A stretch of 64,000 bases of DNA from an uncultured Acidobacteriota bacterium (GCA_963764715.1 CAVXTP010000017.1:65524-129523), one strand, 5' to 3'; shown: positions 3,555-11,229, numbered from the stretch's first letter. The notes: generated by a model from the letters alone, not told the origin. Numbers and translations: made by a program.

Positions 3555-4652
3555 ATGACTCTCCCCACCGCGCCCGTCGCGGCCCCCCGCGGCATTTCGA
3601 AGCTGTCGGACGGCGGGTCGCGCCCCTCGGGCGCGCGACCGCGGGCCGGGCGGATCGCTCTCTTCGCCGCCGGCCTCGTCGTCCTCGGCGCCGGGCTCGC
3701 GCTCGTCGGCTGGACGCCGATCGCCGAGAACCTCGCCCGCATCGGCCCTTACTTCGTCCTGCTCGTCGGCCTCTACGCGGCCGCGCAGATCGCGTTCACG
3801 CTCGGCTGGTGGGTGATCGCCGGCCGGCGCGGCCCGGCGTCGTTCCGGGACCTCTTCGCCGCGTATCTCGCGGGCGACTCGATCAACTACTTCACGAGCG
3901 TCGGCGGCGAGCCCGTCAAGGCCCACCTGCTGCGCGGAAAGATGGGCTTCGGCCCGGCCTTCGCCACGATCTGGGTCAACCGCAACGCGGACGTGCTCGC
4001 GCAGTGGCTCTTCCTCGTCGCCGGAGCGGCCGTCGCGCTGACCCGGTATTCCCTGCCGCCGCTGCCCCGCTTCCTCGTGATCGCCGGCCTGACGGTGCTC
4101 GGCGCGCTCGCGCTCGGGTTCACCGGCATGCAGCGGCGGGGATTCTTCGGGCCGATCCTGAGGCTCCTGAAGAAGGTCCCGCTCCTCGAGAAGCGGCTGT
4201 CGGGGCTCGAGACGCATGCCGAGGAAGTCGACGCGCGGATCCGGCTCTATTACCGGAGCGAGGAGCACGGCCTGCAGTTCGCGATCGCCGTCGTCTGGGG
4301 CTTCCTCGGCTGGTGCGGCGGCCTCGTCGAGACGTGGATCGTCCTGAGGCTGCTCTCCCCGACCCACACGTTCGCATCGGCCTTCGCGGTCGAGTCGCTG
4401 GCGATGATCCTGAACGGCATCCTGCTCTTCATTCCGGCCCGGATCGGGAGCGCCGAAGCCATCCGCCTCGGAGTCGCGGCGCTCGTGGGCCTGACGCCCG
4501 CACAGGGCGCGGCCTACGCGCTCGTCCGGCGGGCCCGCGAGCTGCTGTGGCTCGCGCCGGGGGGCGTCGTGCTCCTGAAGCACCATTTGATCGACGTGGC
4601 GCACTTGCGGCTCGAGCGGCTGGAGCCCTCGGGCCGGGAGGCGCGGCCATGA
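3555..4652 (+). CDS. Flippase-like integral membrane protein (lysylphosphatidylglycerol-synthase TM-region / UPF0104 family)
   Basis: 365 aa with multiple TM helices and a sequence pattern typical of the MprF-N-terminal-like 'flippase-like domain' family (GDSINYFTSVGGEPVKAHLL, RIGSAEAIRLGV). It lies 17 bp downstream of ispH. Confidence 0.7.
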   Translation: MTLPTAPVAAPRGISKLSDGGSRPSGARPRAGRIALFAAGLVVLGAGLALVGWTPIAENLARIGPYFVLLVGLYAAAQIAFTLGWWVIAGRRGPASFRDLFAAYLAGDSINYFTSVGGEPVKAHLLRGKMGFGPAFATIWVNRNADVLAQWLFLVAGAAVALTRYSLPPLPRFLVIAGLTVLGALALGFTGMQRRGFFGPILRLLKKVPLLEKRLSGLETHAEEVDARIRLYYRSEEHGLQFAIAVVWGFLGWCGGLVETWIVLRLLSPTHTFASAFAVESLAMILNGILLFIPARIGSAEAIRLGVAALVGLTPAQGAAYALVRRARELLWLAPGGVVLLKHHLIDVAHLRLERLEPSGREARP

Positions 4653-4749
4653 CGGGCTTCTACGGTAACCTTCCCGCCGTGTGCGCCGACGTCCGGATCG
4701 CACGCCGCCTGACGGCTCGCGCCGAAGAGGCCGCGCGGGGGATCGTCCC

Positions 4750-8867: not shown

Positions 8868-9880
8868 GCCGCGTCCTCGTCCTCGGGCCCCCGGAGGGGC
8901 CGCCCGGAGTCGCGCCCGAATCGGTCCTCCTCGGACTGCCGATCGTGCGGCGGACGGCCCTCGCGGCCCGGCGCGCCGGCTTCGAGGAGATCGCGGTGAT
9001 CGAGCCGCCGCTTCCCGTCCTCGCCGCCCTCGTGGGCACCGACACCGAGGCGCTCGCCGAGGCGCCGCCCGACGCCGTGCGGATGGACTGGAACCGCGTC
9101 GTCGCGGTCCGCGACCTCGAGGCGATCCGCGACGGCGCGGCGCCCGCGTCGGTCGGCGTCGCGGTCGATTCCCCGGCCGATTTCCGGCGCGCCGAAGACC
9201 ACCTGCTCGCGAGCCTCGTCAAGGACACCGAGGGATTCATGTCGCGCCACGTCGAGCGCAAGATCTCGCTCGCGGTCAGCCGGCGCCTCGCCGCGACGAC
9301 GGTCACGCCGAACGCCATGACGCTTCTCTCGGTCTCGATCGGCCTCTTCGGGGCGACCTTCTTTCTCGACAGCACGGCGGCGAGCCAGACCGCGGGGGCC
9401 CTCCTCTTCCTGCTCCATTCGATCCTCGACGGCTGCGACGGCGAGCTCGCGCGACTGAAGTTCCAGGAGTCGCGCTCCGGCGGCCTGCTCGACTTCTGGG
9501 GAGACAACATCGTGCACGTCGCGGTCTTCGCGGCGATCGCGGCCGGCTGGAGCCGCGCGGTCGGCGCCGCGTGGCCGCTCGCGTTCGGCGCCCTCGCGGT
9601 CGGGGGCGCGCTCGCGTCCGCCTTCCTGGTCTACTCCCGCACGATGGCGGCGCCCCGCGAGGGGCCGCTCTACACCTCGGTCGCGACGGCCGCCGAGACT
9701 CGGCTTTCACGCGCTGCCGACGCCCTCTCACGGCGCGACTTCATCTACCTCGTTCTGATACTGTCCGCCTTCGGCAAGGCTGCCTGGTTCCTCGTTCTCA
9801 CGGCCGTCGGAGCGCCGGTTTACTTTCTCGTGCTGACGGCGATCGCGCTGGCCGAAAGACGCCGCCCAAGGAGTGCCTGA
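8864..9880 (+). CDS. CDP-alcohol phosphatidyltransferase with an extra ~130-aa N-terminal domain (nucleotidyltransferase-like/degenerate), similar in architecture to IPCT/DIPPS-type fusions
   Basis: GTG start overlaps the upstream stop. The C-terminal half carries the CDP-OH transferase motif D-G-x2-A-R...G-x3-D-x3-D (DGCDGELARLKFQESRSGGLLDFWGDNIVH) within several TM helices. Confidence 0.75.
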   Translation: MSRVLVLGPPEGPPGVAPESVLLGLPIVRRTALAARRAGFEEIAVIEPPLPVLAALVGTDTEALAEAPPDAVRMDWNRVVAVRDLEAIRDGAAPASVGVAVDSPADFRRAEDHLLASLVKDTEGFMSRHVERKISLAVSRRLAATTVTPNAMTLLSVSIGLFGATFFLDSTAASQTAGALLFLLHSILDGCDGELARLKFQESRSGGLLDFWGDNIVHVAVFAAIAAGWSRAVGAAWPLAFGALAVGGALASAFLVYSRTMAAPREGPLYTSVATAAETRLSRAADALSRRDFIYLVLILSAFGKAAWFLVLTAVGAPVYFLVLTAIALAERRRPRSA

Positions 9881-11229
9881 TGACGGACCGGACTTCCTAC
9901 TACCCCGAGCTCGCGAAGACGATCGCCCCCGCGCAGGGCAAGCTCGCCGTCCTGCTGCCGGGCCTCGGCGCAGTCTCGACGACGTTGATCGCCGGCGTGC
10001 ACCTGATCCGCAAGGGCCTCGCCCGGCCGTTCGGGTCCGTGACCCAGATGCAGAAGCTGCGCCTCGGAAAGCGGTCGAAGCCGCGTTTCGTCCCGGTGCG
10101 GGAGCTCGTCCCCCTCACGGACCTCTCCGACCTGGTGTTCGGCGGCTGGGACATCTTCACCGACAACGCGTTCGAGGCGGCGTCCAAGGCCGGGGTCCTG
10201 TCGGCGGAGATGCTGGCGGCCGTCCGGCCGGAGCTCGAGTCGGTCCGCCCCATGTCGGCCGTCTTCGAGCGCTCCTGGGTCAAGAACCTCGACGGCCCCA
10301 ACGTCAAGAAGGGCGCGACGAAGATGGACCTCGCGGAAGCGCTCGTCCAGGACATCGAAGGCTTCCGCAAGTCCTCGGGCGCGGCGCGCGCCGTCATGGT
10401 CTGGTGCGGCTCGACCGAGGTCTACGCGCAGCAGAAGCCGGTTCACGAGACGCTCGCCGCGTTCGAGAAAGGCCTGAAGGAGAGCTCCCCCGACATCCCG
10501 CCTTCGATGATCTACGCGTACGCCGCGATCGCGAGCGGCACGCCGTACGCCAACGGCGCCCCGAACCTCTCGGTCGACGTCCCCGCGCTCTGGGAGATGG
10601 CGAAGGCGCGCGGCGTCCCGGTCGCCGGCAAGGACTTCAAGACCGGCCAGACGCTGATGAAGACGATCATCGCGCCGGGACTGAAGGCCCGCATGCTCGG
10701 CCTCAAGGGCTGGTTCTCGACCAACATCCTCGGCAACCGCGACGGCGAGGTCCTCGACGACCCCGGCTCCTTCCGCTCGAAGGAGGTCTCCAAGGCCTCG
10801 GTCCTCGACGACATCCTCCAGCCCGAGCTCTATCCCGAGCTCTACGGCGACTACTTCCACAAGGTCCGGATCGAGTACTACCCGCCCCGCGGGGACGCCA
10901 AGGAAGGCTGGGACAACATCGACATCGTCGGCTGGCTCGGCCAGCCGATGCAGATCAAGATCGACTTCCTGTGCCGCGACTCGATCCTCGCGGCGCCGGT
11001 CGTCCTCGACCTGCTCCTCTTTCTCGACCTGGCCGGCCGCGCCGGGCTCGCGGGCATCCAGGAGTGGCTGTCCTTCTACTTCAAGTCGCCGATGGCGCGT
11101 CCGGACCTGCGGCCCGAGCACGATCTCTTCGTGCAGCACATGAAGCTCGCGAACACGCTGCGGATCCTGGTCGGCGAAGAGGTCATCGACCACTCGGGAC
11201 TGGACTACTACGAGGGGGCCGAGGCCTAG
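9880..11229 (+). CDS. myo-inositol-1-phosphate synthase (inositol-3-phosphate synthase family)
   Basis: 449 aa. The ATG overlaps the upstream stop. The protein contains the family hallmark GWDI (DLVFGGWDIFTDNAFEAA) and a Rossmann-like N-terminus. Overall length and layout fit bacterial/archaeal MIPS. Confidence 0.8.
   Translation: MTDRTSYYPELAKTIAPAQGKLAVLLPGLGAVSTTLIAGVHLIRKGLARPFGSVTQMQKLRLGKRSKPRFVPVRELVPLTDLSDLVFGGWDIFTDNAFEAASKAGVLSAEMLAAVRPELESVRPMSAVFERSWVKNLDGPNVKKGATKMDLAEALVQDIEGFRKSSGAARAVMVWCGSTEVYAQQKPVHETLAAFEKGLKESSPDIPPSMIYAYAAIASGTPYANGAPNLSVDVPALWEMAKARGVPVAGKDFKTGQTLMKTIIAPGLKARMLGLKGWFSTNILGNRDGEVLDDPGSFRSKEVSKASVLDDILQPELYPELYGDYFHKVRIEYYPPRGDAKEGWDNIDIVGWLGQPMQIKIDFLCRDSILAAPVVLDLLLFLDLAGRAGLAGIQEWLSFYFKSPMARPDLRPEHDLFVQHMKLANTLRILVGEEVIDHSGLDYYEGAEA

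What the first reader, a model, noticed from the sequence alone, without database searches (positions are those of the whole stretch)
3555..11229. Seven-gene operon predicting an aminated/amide-modified inositol phospho-headgroup, coupled to dxs-ispH
Co-directional genes with overlapping or near-overlapping stop/start codons encode a flippase-like LPG-synthase-TM protein, an NTP-transferase, an ATP-grasp enzyme, a class-III aminotransferase, a Gfo/Idh/MocA dehydrogenase, a CDP-alcohol phosphatidyltransferase fusion and myo-inositol-1-phosphate synthase. MIPS, a cytidylyltransferase and a CDP-alcohol transferase are the known core of phosphatidylinositol / di-myo-inositol-phosphate synthesis. 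The additional dehydrogenase and aminotransferase pair is the textbook route from inositol through an inosose to an inosamine. An ATP-grasp enzyme could then form an amide on that amine, or phosphorylate it, since ITPK-type inositol kinases are also ATP-grasp. A flippase-like membrane protein suggests the product is a membrane lipid headgroup that is translocated. I do not know a described pathway with this gene set, so it is a candidate for a novel aminocyclitol phospholipid or DIP-like solute. The operon starts 17 bp after ispH in a dxs-ispH-... arrangement, so a link to isoprenoid lipid carriers is also conceivable.
Basis: partly seen in the sequence, partly recalled or inferred. Interest (0 to 1): 0.88.

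Follow-up and report, generated by a model that had tools for sequence, protein, structure and literature searches.

The report
Hopanoid-linked amino-inositol phosphate headgroup operon
A real, tightly packed operon that should build an inositol-derived, probably aminated, phosphate head group for a membrane lipid is conserved across about ten bacterial lineages and repeatedly sits inside the hopanoid (bacterial "sterol") gene cluster, giving the unexplained hopanoid gene hpnL a testable role.

Summary
Genes at 3555-11229 are seven co-directional, mostly overlapping genes: an HpnL-like LPG_synthase_TM protein, an NTP-transferase, an ATP-grasp enzyme from a family without a Pfam model, a class-III aminotransferase, a Gfo/Idh/MocA dehydrogenase, a DIPPS/AF2299-type CDP-alcohol phosphotransferase and MIPS. 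They follow dxs-ispH.

The block (plus a HAD phosphatase, missing here) recurs in at least 562 species-level genomes from about ten lineages. Two non-orthologous MIPS types are linked to it. The aminotransferase-dehydrogenase pair behaves as an optional cassette. The ATP-grasp belongs to the core (fused to the NTP-transferase, HAD or CDP-OH transferase), so it is unlikely to be an amide ligase for the amine.

The core matches the CDP-inositol lipid pathway of Rhodothermus and the unconfirmed "alternative" Bacteroides inositol-lipid cluster.

New here: the block lies within or beside the hopanoid locus (shc, hpnH, hpnG, hpnC/D, hpnN) in Alphaproteobacteria, Methylomirabilota, Nitrospirae, Deltaproteobacteria and the window's own lineage. 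In Alphaproteobacteria its membrane protein is bona fide HpnL.

Best reading: a CDP-activated (amino)inositol-phosphate head group is put on a hopanoid or a hopanoid-partner lipid. No biochemistry supports this yet.

The parts
2..556 (-). N-terminal 185 aa of a ferritin-like di-metal carboxylate protein (two EEARH motifs). It is a conserved divergent neighbour of dxs in this lineage. Whether it belongs to the system is uncertain.
612..2561 (+). dxs (1-deoxy-D-xylulose-5-phosphate synthase), first gene of the co-directional unit.
   Evidence: TIGR00204 697 bits against a cutoff of 466. Present directly upstream of the block in about 16 of 22 acidobacterial loci and in no other phylum.
2558..3538 (+). 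ispH (HMBPP reductase). Overlaps dxs by 4 nt and ends 16 nt before g1.
   Evidence: NF002190 428 bits, PF02401 302 bits. ispH also lies next to the block in alphaproteobacterial L038, within the hpn cluster.
3555..4652 (+). g1: HpnL-like polytopic membrane protein (LPG_synthase_TM / flippase-like domain).
   Evidence: PF03706 91.8 bits. The best NCBIfam hit is HpnL (TIGR03476) at 118.7 bits, below the cutoff of 195.65. Multiple hydrophobic segments. The counterparts in alphaproteobacterial clusters score 242-304 bits, which makes them true HpnL.
4681..5439 (+). g2: nucleotidyltransferase, presumed CTP:(amino)inositol-phosphate cytidylyltransferase. The start is probably GTG 4750 (229 aa).
   Evidence: PF12804 50.8 bits. 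IPCT/DIPPS NF041135 30 bits. ispD 29.8 bits, far below cutoff. The only full-length PDB alignment is to A. fulgidus IPCT 2XME (E 0.007). Orthologues are 229-232 aa. Fused to the ATP-grasp in many genomes.
5436..6305 (+). g3: ATP-grasp enzyme of a family with no Pfam or NCBIfam model; a core member of the pathway. Its role is not established (a kinase is favoured here; a ligase is possible).
6302..7639 (+). g4: class-III (GABA-AT-like) PLP aminotransferase, first half of the optional two-gene cassette.
   Evidence: PF00202 336 bits. The closest solved structures are dialkylglycine decarboxylase and GabT at about 246 bits. 58-75% identical across phyla and always followed by the Gfo/Idh/MocA gene.
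7640..7829 (.). 190-nt GC-rich structured intergenic insert (REP/MITE-like). It is not part of the conserved operon.
   Evidence: MFE -126 kcal/mol, z -5.8. Absent in L003 (about 10-nt spacer) and 96% identical in L002. A 76% copy lies at another site in L006. No Rfam hit.
7830..8867 (+). g5: Gfo/Idh/MocA NAD(P)-dependent dehydrogenase, second half of the cassette. Presumed to oxidise a ring hydroxyl to a ketone.
   Evidence: PF01408, PF22725 and PF02894. Below cutoff for IolG (54.7 against 355) and for UDP-GlcNAc 3-dehydrogenase (71 against 450). The best PDB hit is 6NOR at 76.6 bits; scyllo-inositol dehydrogenase and inositol 2-dehydrogenase score 43-47 bits.
8864..9880 (+). g6: CDP-alcohol phosphotransferase of the DIPPS/AF2299 clade, with an N-terminal stretch of about 120 aa that precedes the catalytic domain. 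This stretch is read here as a degenerate nucleotidyltransferase-like domain.
   Evidence: PF01066 49 bits. NF041135 (IPCT/DIPPS, C-terminal half) 102 bits, against archaetidylinositol-phosphate synthase 54 and PIP synthase 39. PDB hits: AF2299 (4O6M) E 1.4e-21 and IPCT/DIPPS (4MND) E 8.7e-19, the latter aligned from residue 98. PIPS only E 5e-6. Motif DGCDGELAR...GGLLDFWGD at residue 189, with TM segments. No GxGxR motif is visible in the first 120 residues (inspection of the sequence).
9880..11229 (+). g7: myo-inositol-1-phosphate (inositol-3-phosphate) synthase, start overlapping the g6 stop by 1 nt.
   Evidence: PF07994 320 bits and PF01658 110 bits. 66-97% identical orthologues close the block in Acidobacteriota, Nitrospirae, Methylomirabilales, Verrucomicrobia and Elusimicrobia. 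A different, actinobacterial-type MIPS takes its place in Alphaproteobacteria, Chloroflexia and some Rokubacteria.

Best explanation
The seven genes are the Thermoanaerobaculia-type (Acidobacteriota) version of a gene block conserved in about ten bacterial lineages. The block makes an inositol-derived phospho-head group and attaches it to a membrane lipid.

Proposed route:
1. MIPS (g7) turns glucose-6-P into inositol-3-P. This follows from strong homology.
2. The ATP-grasp (g3), together with a HAD-IA phosphatase, re-positions or re-installs the phosphate. The phosphatase is conserved in the block but is encoded outside this window. The logic is kinase + phosphatase + nucleotidyltransferase, as in ADP-heptose synthesis. 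This step is inferred and is the weakest one.
3. The Gfo/Idh/MocA dehydrogenase (g5) and the class-III aminotransferase (g4) convert one ring CHOH to CHNH2. They form an optional cassette. This step is inferred.
4. The nucleotidyltransferase (g2) makes the CDP-activated cyclitol. This is inferred from weak homology and from gene fusions.
5. The DIPPS/AF2299-type transferase (g6) moves the phospho-cyclitol onto a lipid hydroxyl. The enzyme family is shown; the acceptor is inferred.
6. The HpnL-like protein (g1) handles or translocates the product. This is inferred.

The block lies inside or against the hopanoid biosynthesis locus in five lineages, including the window's own. In Alphaproteobacteria its membrane protein is HpnL itself. 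The acceptor is therefore most likely an extended hopanoid (bacteriohopanetetrol-type polyol), or else a glycerolipid or ether lipid made to work together with hopanoids. dxs-ispH in the same transcription unit would then supply the isoprenoid precursors.
For: - Gene identities and tight coupling.
- Conservation of HAD-NTP-grasp-AT3-GFO-CDPOH in 86 loci, with counts 75/79/86/75/69/64 (many loci are cut by contig ends).
- Two non-orthologous MIPS types are adjacent in 46 loci.
- Rosetta-stone fusions NTP::grasp, HAD::NTP::grasp and grasp::CDP-OH.
- g6 is closest to IPCT/DIPPS and AF2299, not to PIP synthases.
- Loci that lack AT3-GFO nest inside clades that contain the cassette in the ATP-grasp tree.
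- Precedents: the CDP-inositol to lipid pathway (PMC4587543), the Bacteroides alternative cluster with a nearby LPG-synthase homologue (PMC9246714), and ATP-dependent kinase plus IPCT-family cytidylyltransferase pairs (and own knowledge of Cj1418/Cj1416 and HldE/GmhB).
- Hopanoid linkage:
  - L038: hpnD/E-shc-hpnG-hpnH-ispH-[MIPS...HpnL]-hpnN.
  - L030: hpnC-hpnD-shc-MIPS.
  - hpn genes flank the block in 15 of 20 alphaproteobacterial loci, in Methylomirabilales L022/L023, Nitrospirae L012 and Deltaproteobacteria L067/L068.
  - Close relative L087: shc-hpnH-hpnA-hpnG-hpnC/D lie about 6-16 kb upstream of dxs.
  - HpnL (TIGR03476) scores 242-304 bits in the alphaproteobacterial clusters.
  - CDP-alcohol phosphatidyltransferase is listed 1409 times in shc neighbourhoods in a preprint supplement and is not discussed there.
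Against: - There are no biochemical or lipid data for any member.
- g2 is only weakly IPCT-like (30 bits).
- The core block also occurs in Bacteroidales, a phylum said to lack SHC. Elusimicrobia and Verrucomicrobia loci show no hpn genes within 10 kb. A hopanoid acceptor therefore cannot be universal.
- To my knowledge no phosphorylated hopanoid has ever been reported.
- A survey of alphaproteobacterial hpn clusters saw 'no obvious candidate' extra genes (PMC12583986).
- The HAD gene is missing from this operon, and no HAD or other hpn gene lies in the window.
- The aminotransferase could be an HpnO-like enzyme that acts on the hopanoid side chain rather than on inositol.
Confidence: 0.45

Rival explanations
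1. An ordinary (amino)inositol glycerophospholipid or ether lipid. The transferase puts the phospho-cyclitol on diacylglycerol, dialkylglycerol or ceramide, as BEPIS does in Rhodothermus and as proposed for Bacteroides. The neighbourhood with hopanoid genes reflects only co-regulation of envelope lipids or a 'lipid island'.
For: - The only characterised or proposed relatives use glycerol- or ceramide-based acceptors.
- The core block exists in the hopanoid-free Bacteroidales, and the Bacteroides species described with such a cluster make plain PI-dihydroceramide.
- Extended blocks in Verrucomicrobia and Elusimicrobia have no hpn genes nearby.
Against: - The block is embedded between shc/hpnH and hpnN in unrelated phyla with different gene orders.
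- Its membrane protein in Alphaproteobacteria is HpnL, a family defined by hopanoid-locus association.
Confidence: 0.3
2. The aminotransferase and dehydrogenase act on the hopanoid side chain, not on inositol. The dehydrogenase oxidises C-35 of bacteriohopanetetrol and the HpnO-like class-III aminotransferase makes aminobacteriohopanetriol. The inositol-phosphate module then decorates or accompanies it.
For: - HpnO is a class-III aminotransferase, and class-III aminotransferases near shc are routinely labelled hpnO.
- g4 is GABA-AT/omega-aminotransferase-like, a type that prefers terminal aldehydes.
- The block is linked to the hpn locus.
Against: - The pair is inserted between the ATP-grasp and CDP-OH transferase genes.
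- It also occurs in clusters with no hpn genes nearby (Verrucomicrobia, Elusimicrobia, L086).
- HpnO needs no partner dehydrogenase (own knowledge).
- Gfo/Idh/MocA enzymes typically oxidise sugar or cyclitol ring hydroxyls.
Confidence: 0.12
3. A soluble di-inositol-phosphate-like or glycerophosphoinositol-like compatible solute (possibly aminated). CDP-inositol plus a phosphorylated alcohol gives a phosphorylated diester, which the HAD phosphatase then trims, as in DIP synthesis.
For: - g6 is closest to DIPPS.
- MIPS + cytidylyltransferase + DIPPS-like transferase + phosphatase is exactly the DIP enzyme set.
- The HAD resembles small-molecule phosphatases.
Against: - A flippase-like HpnL/LPG_synthase_TM gene was detected in 47 of 86 loci.
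- The block is embedded in lipid (hopanoid) loci.
- The hosts are mesophilic soil lineages.
- The described Bacteroides counterparts make lipids.
Confidence: 0.08
4. One reading: the ATP-grasp is a ligase that acylates the inosamine amine with an amino acid or another carboxylate, giving an amide-modified head group.
For: - g3 and g4 overlap by 4 nt.
Against: - Orthologous ATP-grasp genes occur without the aminotransferase and dehydrogenase (L018, L019, L024, Bacteroidales, module A).
- The Bacteroides species reported with such clusters make unmodified PI-dihydroceramide.
- The fusions are to the NTP-transferase, HAD and CDP-OH transferase. The one aminotransferase-linked sequence (P0159) is a fragment.
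- The D-x-N metal motif resembles that of inositol-phosphate kinases (and own recollection of the ITPK1 motif, which was not verified here).
Confidence: 0.1

Closest known systems
CDP-inositol-dependent ether-lipid pathway of Rhodothermus marinus (MIPS + IPCT + BEPIS; Jorge, Borges & Santos 2015, as cited in PMC4587543)
   Same: An operon-like set of MIPS, a cytidylyltransferase and a CDP-alcohol phosphotransferase. The head group, not the lipid, is CTP-activated and is then transferred to a lipid alcohol.
   Different: The window's system adds an ATP-grasp, a HAD (elsewhere in the genome), a dehydrogenase/aminotransferase cassette and an HpnL-like protein, and it sits in a hopanoid/MEP-pathway context.
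Putative 'alternative' inositol-lipid cluster of Bacteroides vulgatus/Prevotella (Heaver et al. 2022, PMC9246714)
   Same: NTP-transferase + CDP-alcohol phosphatidyltransferase + HAD hydrolase + MIPS, with an LPG-synthase homologue nearby. Bacteroidales loci found here have NTP-ATPgrasp-CDPOH-HAD as four consecutive genes.
   Different: That paper does not mention an ATP-grasp, and the pathway is unconfirmed. It has no dehydrogenase/aminotransferase and no hopanoid context. Identity of my Bacteroidales loci with the B. vulgatus locus is inferred from gene content only.
IPCT/DIPPS di-myo-inositol-phosphate synthesis (Archaeoglobus fulgidus, PDB 4MND) and AF2299 (4O6M)
   Same: They are the best sequence relatives of g6, including the linker that precedes the membrane domain. 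The catalytic motif is the same, and the enzyme logic is MIPS + cytidylyltransferase + phosphatase.
   Different: Scores are far below the equivalog cutoff (102 against 580 bits). The cytidylyltransferase is a separate, divergent gene. The hosts are mesophilic soil bacteria, and the lipid-type accessory genes argue against a solute.
Composite-hopanoid head-group modules in hpn clusters (HpnI/HpnJ/HpnK for BHT-glucosamine and cyclitol ether; HpnO for aminotriol; HpnL of unknown function)
   Same: Located in the hpn locus, includes an HpnL-family membrane protein and a class-III aminotransferase, and predicts an amino-cyclitol-type polar head.
   Different: The chemistry is entirely different: inositol-phosphate and CDP activation with a phosphodiester, rather than UDP-GlcNAc glycosylation with radical-SAM ring contraction. 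No hpnI/J/K were seen in the loci examined.
ADP-heptose pathway (HldE kinase/adenylyltransferase + GmhB HAD phosphatase) and Campylobacter Cj1418/Cj1416 (kinase + IPCT-family cytidylyltransferase)
   Same: Kinase, HAD phosphatase and nucleotidyltransferase act in series and are sometimes fused. This would explain the HAD::NTP::ATP-grasp fusions.
   Different: This is an analogy of logic only; the proteins are not homologous to g3. Kinase activity of g3 is unproven.
Inositol to inosose to inosamine route (IdhA/MosB in rhizopine, StrI/StsC in streptomycin biosynthesis)
   Same: A Gfo/Idh/MocA-type dehydrogenase followed by a PLP aminotransferase on a cyclitol.
   Different: To my knowledge the known inosose aminotransferases belong to the DegT/StsC family, whereas g4 is class III. 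Those products are soluble secondary metabolites, not lipid head groups.

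Membership tests
[quoted passage not shown] | Both Pfam MIPS domains (PF07994, PF01658) above the gathering score | tested here: met
   320.1 and 109.6 bits against cutoffs of 25 and 27. The actinobacterial-type model TIGR03450 gives only 25.6 bits, so g7 is the other (archaeal/eukaryote-like) type.
IspD (MEP cytidylyltransferase) | TIGR00453/PF01128 above cutoff | tested here: not met
   29.8 bits against 181.3, and 24.8 against 27.
IPCT (CTP:inositol-1-phosphate cytidylyltransferase) | Equivalog-level match to the IPCT half of NF041135, or clear similarity to solved IPCT structures | tested here: inconclusive
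   30.1 bits against 580. 2XME gives E 0.007 but a full-length alignment. Context (MIPS, DIPPS-like partner) supports the assignment.
DIPPS/AF2299-type CDP-alcohol phosphotransferase | CDP-OH_P_transf domain with the D(x)2DG(x)2AR...G(x)3D(x)3D motif, and closest relatives in the DIPPS clade | tested here: met
   PF01066 49 bits. Motif at residue 189. 4O6M E 1.4e-21 and 4MND E 8.7e-19, against PIPS E 5e-6. It is not an equivalog of Thermococcales IPCT/DIPPS (102 against 580 bits).
CDP-diacylglycerol-dependent PIP synthase (mycobacterial/BT_1523 type) | NF045883 / NF052561 above cutoff | tested here: not met
   39.2 bits against 170.
BEPIS (Rhodothermus dialkylether glycerophosphoinositol synthase) | Orthology to the characterised enzyme; dialkylglycerol as acceptor | not testable with these tools
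   No BEPIS sequence was available, and the primary paper is not in the library. Only the operon logic matches.
HpnL (TIGR03476) | Score above 195.65 bits and location in a hopanoid locus | tested here: inconclusive
   Window g1 scores 118.7 bits, which is the best hit but below cutoff. Cluster counterparts: Alphaproteobacteria 242-304 bits (met), Rokubacteria 181, other Acidobacteriota 121-145. Hopanoid-locus location holds for the lineage.
ITPK1/PPIP5K-type ATP-grasp inositol-phosphate kinases | PF05770 match or closest structural neighbour; kinase activity | tested here: inconclusive
   [not shown]
RimK/LysX/ArgX-type carboxylate-amine ligases | TIGR00768/PF08443 above cutoff | tested here: not met
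   [not shown]
Inositol 2-dehydrogenase IolG | TIGR04380 above 355 bits | tested here: not met
   54.7 bits. Family-level Gfo/Idh/MocA membership is met.
HpnO (hopanoid aminotransferase) | Orthology to characterised HpnO | not testable with these tools
   No specific model exists; IPR005814 is generic. No reference sequence was at hand.
Bacteroides 'alternative inositol lipid cluster' | NTP-transferase + CDP-alcohol PT + HAD + MIPS clustered, with an LPG-synthase homologue nearby | tested here: inconclusive
   The window has four of the five components and lacks HAD. Relatives carry HAD. No direct sequence comparison with the BVU genes was possible.

The most novel reading that the evidence does not exclude
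The block makes a so-far undescribed class of composite hopanoids. A DIPPS-like transferase esterifies bacteriohopanepolyols at the side-chain hydroxyl with CDP-activated inositol phosphate or amino-deoxy-inositol phosphate. HpnL flips the product and HpnN exports it. The no-Pfam ATP-grasp family is a new bacterial cyclitol (phosphate) kinase. The same kinase would also be the unrecognised fourth enzyme of the inositol-lipid pathway of gut Bacteroidetes.
Probability: 0.22. Interest if true: 0.92.

Novelty: new variant of a known kind. Interest (0 to 1): 0.8.

Why it matters
- The function of HpnL has been open since the hpn genes were named. Two recent surveys still call it unknown. Its systematic partnership with a MIPS/CDP-alcohol-transferase pathway makes it directly testable.
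- A phospho-(amino)cyclitol head group, on hopanoids or on their partner lipids, would be a new lipid class in abundant soil phyla: Acidobacteriota, Rokubacteria/Methylomirabilota and Xanthobacteraceae-like Alphaproteobacteria. It could be a new biomarker, and it may account for some of the 'unidentified aminophospholipids' reported in species descriptions.
- Amination would turn an anionic head group into a zwitterionic one. That is the same kind of charge change as the one made by MprF, whose flippase domain is the homologue of g1.
- The ATP-grasp family (no Pfam model, 991 clusters at 50% identity) is also an overlooked core gene of the unconfirmed 'alternative' inositol-lipid pathway of gut Bacteroidetes. 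It is a candidate for the missing bacterial inositol kinase noted for Tannerella and mycobacteria.

Tried and rejected
- Exact-sequence look-up of g3 found nothing. The window organism is not in the collection; the closest is MAG MFD00822.bin.1.237 (L002), 89-98% amino-acid identity per gene.
- Rejected:
  - IspD identity of g2.
  - CDP-DAG-type PIP synthase identity of g6.
  - A functional role for the 190-nt g4/g5 spacer.
- The afdb50 fold library was unavailable.
This was solved by going through homologues of the ferritin-like neighbour.
- All-against-all ORF clustering of the loci was blurred by high-GC shadow ORFs.
- Cluster-member names and a homologue search seeded from an alphaproteobacterial ATP-grasp gave no cultured host.
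- The promoter/terminator scan and Rfam found nothing.
- Eight literature searches found no description of an inosamine lipid or of a MIPS-hopanoid link.
- The window itself holds no shc/hpn genes and no HAD.

Full report
**1. What is in the sequence**

The window has about 71% G+C, so raw ORF lists are crowded with shadow ORFs. Third-position GC (0.90-1.00) picks out one + strand frame per gene from 612 to 11229.

Start-codon inspection gives these genes:
- dxs 612-2561
- ispH 2558-3538
- g1 3555-4652
- g2 4681-5439 (probably 4750-5439, because orthologues are 229-232 aa)
- g3 5436-6305
- g4 6302-7639
- g5 7830-8867
- g6 8864-9880
- g7 9880-11229

Five junctions overlap by 1-4 nt. ispH and g1 are 16 nt apart. 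The only long gap is the 190 nt between g4 and g5:
- It is a GC-rich, strongly folding insert (z -5.8).
- It is absent from relative L003 and present at 96% identity in L002.
- A diverged copy sits elsewhere in L006.

It is therefore a REP/MITE-like element, not a conserved operon feature.

No terminator-like or promoter-like sites above chance were found, and there were no Rfam hits. Downstream lies dinB (11318-12439), which is unrelated. Upstream on the minus strand lies a partial ferritin-like gene (2-556).

**2. Gene identities**

- *g1:* LPG_synthase_TM. Its best NCBIfam hit is HpnL (118.7 bits, cutoff 195.65).
- *g2:* a MobA-like/sugar-phosphate nucleotidyltransferase. It is not IspD (29.8 against 181 bits).
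- *g4:* a class-III aminotransferase of the GABA-AT type.
- *g5:* Gfo/Idh/MocA. Its nearest solved structure is 6NOR. Inositol dehydrogenases appear only at 43-47 bits.
- *g6:* a CDP-alcohol phosphotransferase with an intact catalytic motif.
  - Its nearest relatives are A. fulgidus AF2299 and IPCT/DIPPS, not PIP synthases.
  - About 120 N-terminal residues precede the catalytic domain. The alignment to IPCT/DIPPS starts at residue 98, in the linker that follows the IPCT domain.
- No GxGxR motif is visible in this stretch.
- *g7:* MIPS (320 + 110 bits).
- *g3:* no Pfam hit. The AlphaFold model built on 40 homologues is confident (pLDDT 94) and is an ATP-grasp.
  - Profile searches hit RimK-type ligases over the full length and ITPKs over the C-terminal metal-binding region.
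  - Family members hit the RimK and Ins134_P3_kin Pfam models about equally weakly.
  - The family is thus a distinct ATP-grasp clade whose chemistry (kinase or ligase) is not settled by homology.

**3. The block is conserved across phyla**

The ATP-grasp family is large. At least 1915 homologues were found, 70% or more identical within Thermoanaerobaculia/Acidobacteriota MAGs. There are 991 representatives at 50% clustering.

The best 80 come from:
- Acidobacteriota
- Nitrospirae
- Methylomirabilota/Rokubacteria
- Alphaproteobacteria (Pseudolabrys, Xanthobacteraceae, Stellaceae)
- Chloroflexia and Limnocylindria
- Verrucomicrobia
- Deltaproteobacteria/Thermodesulfobacteriota
- Elusimicrobia
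- Bacteroidales

The closest relative is MAG MFD00822.bin.1.237 (L002; 89-98% per protein).

tblastn matrices over 86 loci show a recurrent order: HAD - NTP-transferase - ATP-grasp - aminotransferase - dehydrogenase - CDP-OH transferase. Counts are 75/79/86/75/69/64; many loci are cut by contig ends. An LPG_synthase_TM gene was detected in 47 loci and MIPS in 46.

Where the window-type MIPS is missing, an actinobacterial-type MIPS (PF01658; TIGR03450 439 bits) takes its place at the other end of the block. This occurs in Alphaproteobacteria, Chloroflexia and some Rokubacteria. Two non-orthologous MIPS types recruited to the same block are strong evidence that inositol phosphate is the entry metabolite.

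**4. Core and cassette**

Fusion proteins exist in three forms: NTP::ATP-grasp (many), HAD::NTP::ATP-grasp, and ATP-grasp::CDP-OH transferase.

A minimal module, HpnL-like - HAD - ATP-grasp - CDP-OH transferase, occurs in two settings:
- On its own (L040, L056, L082).
- As a second, paralogous copy on the opposite strand just upstream of dxs in the window's nearest relatives. In the window's genome it would lie just left of position 1.

Bacteroidales-like loci have NTP - ATP-grasp - CDP-OH - HAD as four consecutive genes, without an aminotransferase or dehydrogenase.

In a neighbour-joining tree of the ATP-grasp:
- The Bacteroidales and module-A copies form separate clades.
- Three loci that lack the aminotransferase and dehydrogenase (L018, L019, L024) nest inside clades that have them.

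The aminotransferase-dehydrogenase pair therefore behaves as an optional two-gene cassette. It is inserted between the ATP-grasp and transferase genes of a basal four-enzyme pathway.

The ATP-grasp does not depend on the amine.

The window operon itself has no HAD gene. In this lineage the only HAD seen is in the divergent module A.

**5. Relation to known systems**

The basal set has two precedents.
- *Rhodothermus marinus.* MIPS, IPCT and the transferase BEPIS make dialkylether glycerophosphoinositol from CDP-inositol (Jorge et al. 2015; described in PMC4587543; the primary paper is not in the library).
- *Bacteroides vulgatus/Prevotella.* A putative, unconfirmed 'alternative' cluster has an NTP-transferase, a CDP-alcohol phosphatidyltransferase, a HAD and MIPS, with an LPG-synthase homologue nearby (PMC9246714).

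That paper and its supplements never mention an ATP-grasp. The species it describes make plain PI-dihydroceramide. If their clusters carry this ATP-grasp as my Bacteroidales loci do, its action is probably 'traceless'.

Combined with the HAD-IA small-molecule phosphatase and the triple fusion, this suggests a kinase - phosphatase - nucleotidyltransferase relay, as in ADP-heptose synthesis (HldE/GmhB; own knowledge). The relay would move or re-install the phosphate that MIPS leaves on D-3. After dephosphorylation, oxidation and transamination, the same kinase could re-phosphorylate the free cyclitol.

IPCT-family cytidylyltransferases fed by dedicated kinases are known (Cj1418/Cj1416 from own knowledge).

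This step is inference. I give it roughly one chance in three.

**6. The hopanoid connection**

That adjacency is confined to Acidobacteriota (about 16 of 22 loci). The wider context is far more telling.

- *Alphaproteobacterial L038.* The order is hpnD::hpnE - shc - hpnG - hpnH - ispH - [MIPS - HAD - NTP - grasp - AT3 - GFO - CDPOH - HpnL] - MMPL/HpnN-like.
- *L030 and six related loci.* hpnC - hpnD - shc is followed after 186 nt by MIPS and the block.
- *Alphaproteobacteria overall.* hpn genes flank the block in 15 of 20 loci.
- *Methylomirabilales L022 and L023.* The block lies next to shc, with MMPL transporter genes in the same loci.
- *Nitrospirae L012.* hpnH follows the block.
- *Deltaproteobacteria L067 and L068.* hpnA-like and hpnG-like genes precede it.
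- *Acidobacterial L001, L009 and L016.* hpnH, hpnA, hpnG and hpnC/D lie upstream of dxs.
- *L087, a 4.1-Mb contig of a close relative* (ferritin-like protein 90% identical). The order is shc - hpnH - hpnA - hpnG - hpnC/D - DUF2279 - module A - cytochrome c - ferritin-like - dxs - ispH - HpnL-like - NTP - grasp - AT3 - GFO - CDPOH - MIPS. The window thus starts about 6-16 kb to the right of the hopanoid core genes of its own lineage.

The LPG_synthase_TM proteins of the alphaproteobacterial blocks are bona fide HpnL (TIGR03476 242-304 bits against a cutoff of 195.65). The Rokubacteria (181 bits) and Acidobacteriota (118-145 bits) versions are divergent members whose best hit is always HpnL.

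HpnL is still described as of unknown function.

In a recent preprint, the supplementary table of shc neighbourhoods lists 'CDP-alcohol phosphatidyltransferase' 1409 times. That is as often as hpnG or hpnN. The same table labels any class-III aminotransferase 'hpnO'. The main text does not discuss this. I treat it as a lead only, because the counts are redundant and the family is broad.

No paper found links MIPS or CDP-alcohol transferases with hopanoids.

**7. Most likely mechanism, and its limits**

I propose these steps:
1. Glucose-6-P is converted to inositol-3-P by g7.
2. The phosphate is relayed by g3 and the HAD.
3. One ring carbon is oxidised and transaminated by g5 and g4.
4. The cyclitol phosphate is cytidylylated by g2.
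5. g6 transfers the phospho-cyclitol to a lipid hydroxyl.
6. The HpnL-like g1 handles the product.
7. dxs-ispH are co-transcribed to feed isoprenoid synthesis.

The acceptor is the main unknown.
- *For a hopanoid polyol:* the repeated embedding in hpn loci, and the HpnL identity of the membrane protein.
- *Against a universal hopanoid acceptor:* the core block in hopanoid-free Bacteroidales; extended blocks without nearby hpn genes in Verrucomicrobia and Elusimicrobia; and, to my knowledge, the absence of any reported phospho-hopanoid.

A family whose acceptor differs by lineage (ceramide, dialkylglycerol, hopanepolyol) would reconcile these facts.

Alternatives are listed under the rival explanations:
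- An ordinary aminated inositol phospholipid.
- A cassette that acts on the hopanoid side chain, HpnO-like.
- A DIP-like solute.
- An amide-forming ATP-grasp.

**8. Verdict**

- The basal pathway is a known kind: CDP-inositol head-group transfer.
- The conserved amination cassette, the unannotated ATP-grasp core enzyme and the systematic association with hopanoid loci and HpnL appear undescribed.

I rate it a new variant of a known kind with high interest. About a one-in-five chance remains that it defines a new class of composite hopanoids.

Noticed in passing
[not shown]
   Followed up: partly
just left of window position 1 (inferred); L002 1-3060, L006 1214-5104, L087 11855-15549: The nearest relatives carry a second, paralogous minimal module on the opposite strand upstream of dxs: HpnL-like, HAD, ATP-grasp (45-47% identical to g3) and CDP-OH transferase (52-57% identical to g6). 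It has no NTP-transferase, aminotransferase or dehydrogenase. It holds the only HAD seen near the operon in this lineage.
   Followed up: partly
window 7640-7829: A 190-nt GC-rich intergenic insert with a very stable predicted fold (-126 kcal/mol, z -5.8). It is absent from L003, 96% identical in L002, and has a 76% copy at an unrelated intergenic site in L006. It is probably a REP/MITE-like element.
   Followed up: yes
window 48164-55271 (+): A second lipid-modifying operon with overlapping starts: fatty-acid desaturase, amine-oxidase-like flavoprotein, DUF1365, cyclopropane-fatty-acid-synthase-like methyltransferase, DUF1475, DUF2062, DUF1295/steroid-reductase-like protein and a second CMAS-like methyltransferase. 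It resembles the conserved cfa/DUF1365/DUF1295 clusters implicated in methylated or furan fatty acids (own recollection).
   Followed up: no
window 57934-59340 (-) and 56247-57914 (-): A PlsB-like glycerol-3-phosphate acyltransferase (Acyltransferase + GPAT_C) next to an amidase.
   Followed up: no
window 24263-28641 (-): Two tandem paralogous proteins of about 720-730 aa with IPT/TIG and S-layer-homology domains. They suggest an SLH-anchored surface layer in this acidobacterium.
   Followed up: no
window 32565-34346 (-): A full-length bacterial Peptidase_M2 (angiotensin-converting-enzyme-like) protein, 759 bits. A large Reg_prop/Y_Y_Y histidine kinase lies next to it (29459-32521).
   Followed up: no
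L027 14324-15886 and 11 other Rokubacteria/Methylomirabilota and Limnocylindria loci: In these loci a membrane protein of about 520 aa containing a CopD domain sits inside the block, usually between the CDP-OH transferase and the HpnL-like gene. It is a lineage-specific extra component of unknown role.
   Followed up: no
L086 1-6055: In one locus of unknown taxon, the block is preceded by two LtaS/EptA-like 'Sulfatase' membrane proteins, a radical SAM/SPASM protein, a metallophosphatase and an ArnT-like PMT_2 glycosyltransferase. This hints that the head-group lipid might serve as a donor for periplasmic envelope modification.
   Followed up: no
Supplementary file 8 of bioRxiv 10.1101/2025.07.29.667474: In shc neighbourhoods of 3662 SHC loci, 'CDP-alcohol phosphatidyltransferase' is listed 1409 times, and every class-III aminotransferase is auto-labelled hpnO (1295). 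Some 'hpnO' calls near shc may in fact be the aminotransferase of this block.
   Followed up: partly
L087 (ERZ25039533 contig_2100): The gene calls in this long-read MAG are visibly frameshifted: dxs is split into 484 + 122 aa, and the aminotransferase and dehydrogenase (the span also covers the CDP-OH transferase region) are merged into one 1125-aa call. Apparent 'fusions' from such assemblies need care. The fusion proteins cited in the report come from other contigs.
   Followed up: no
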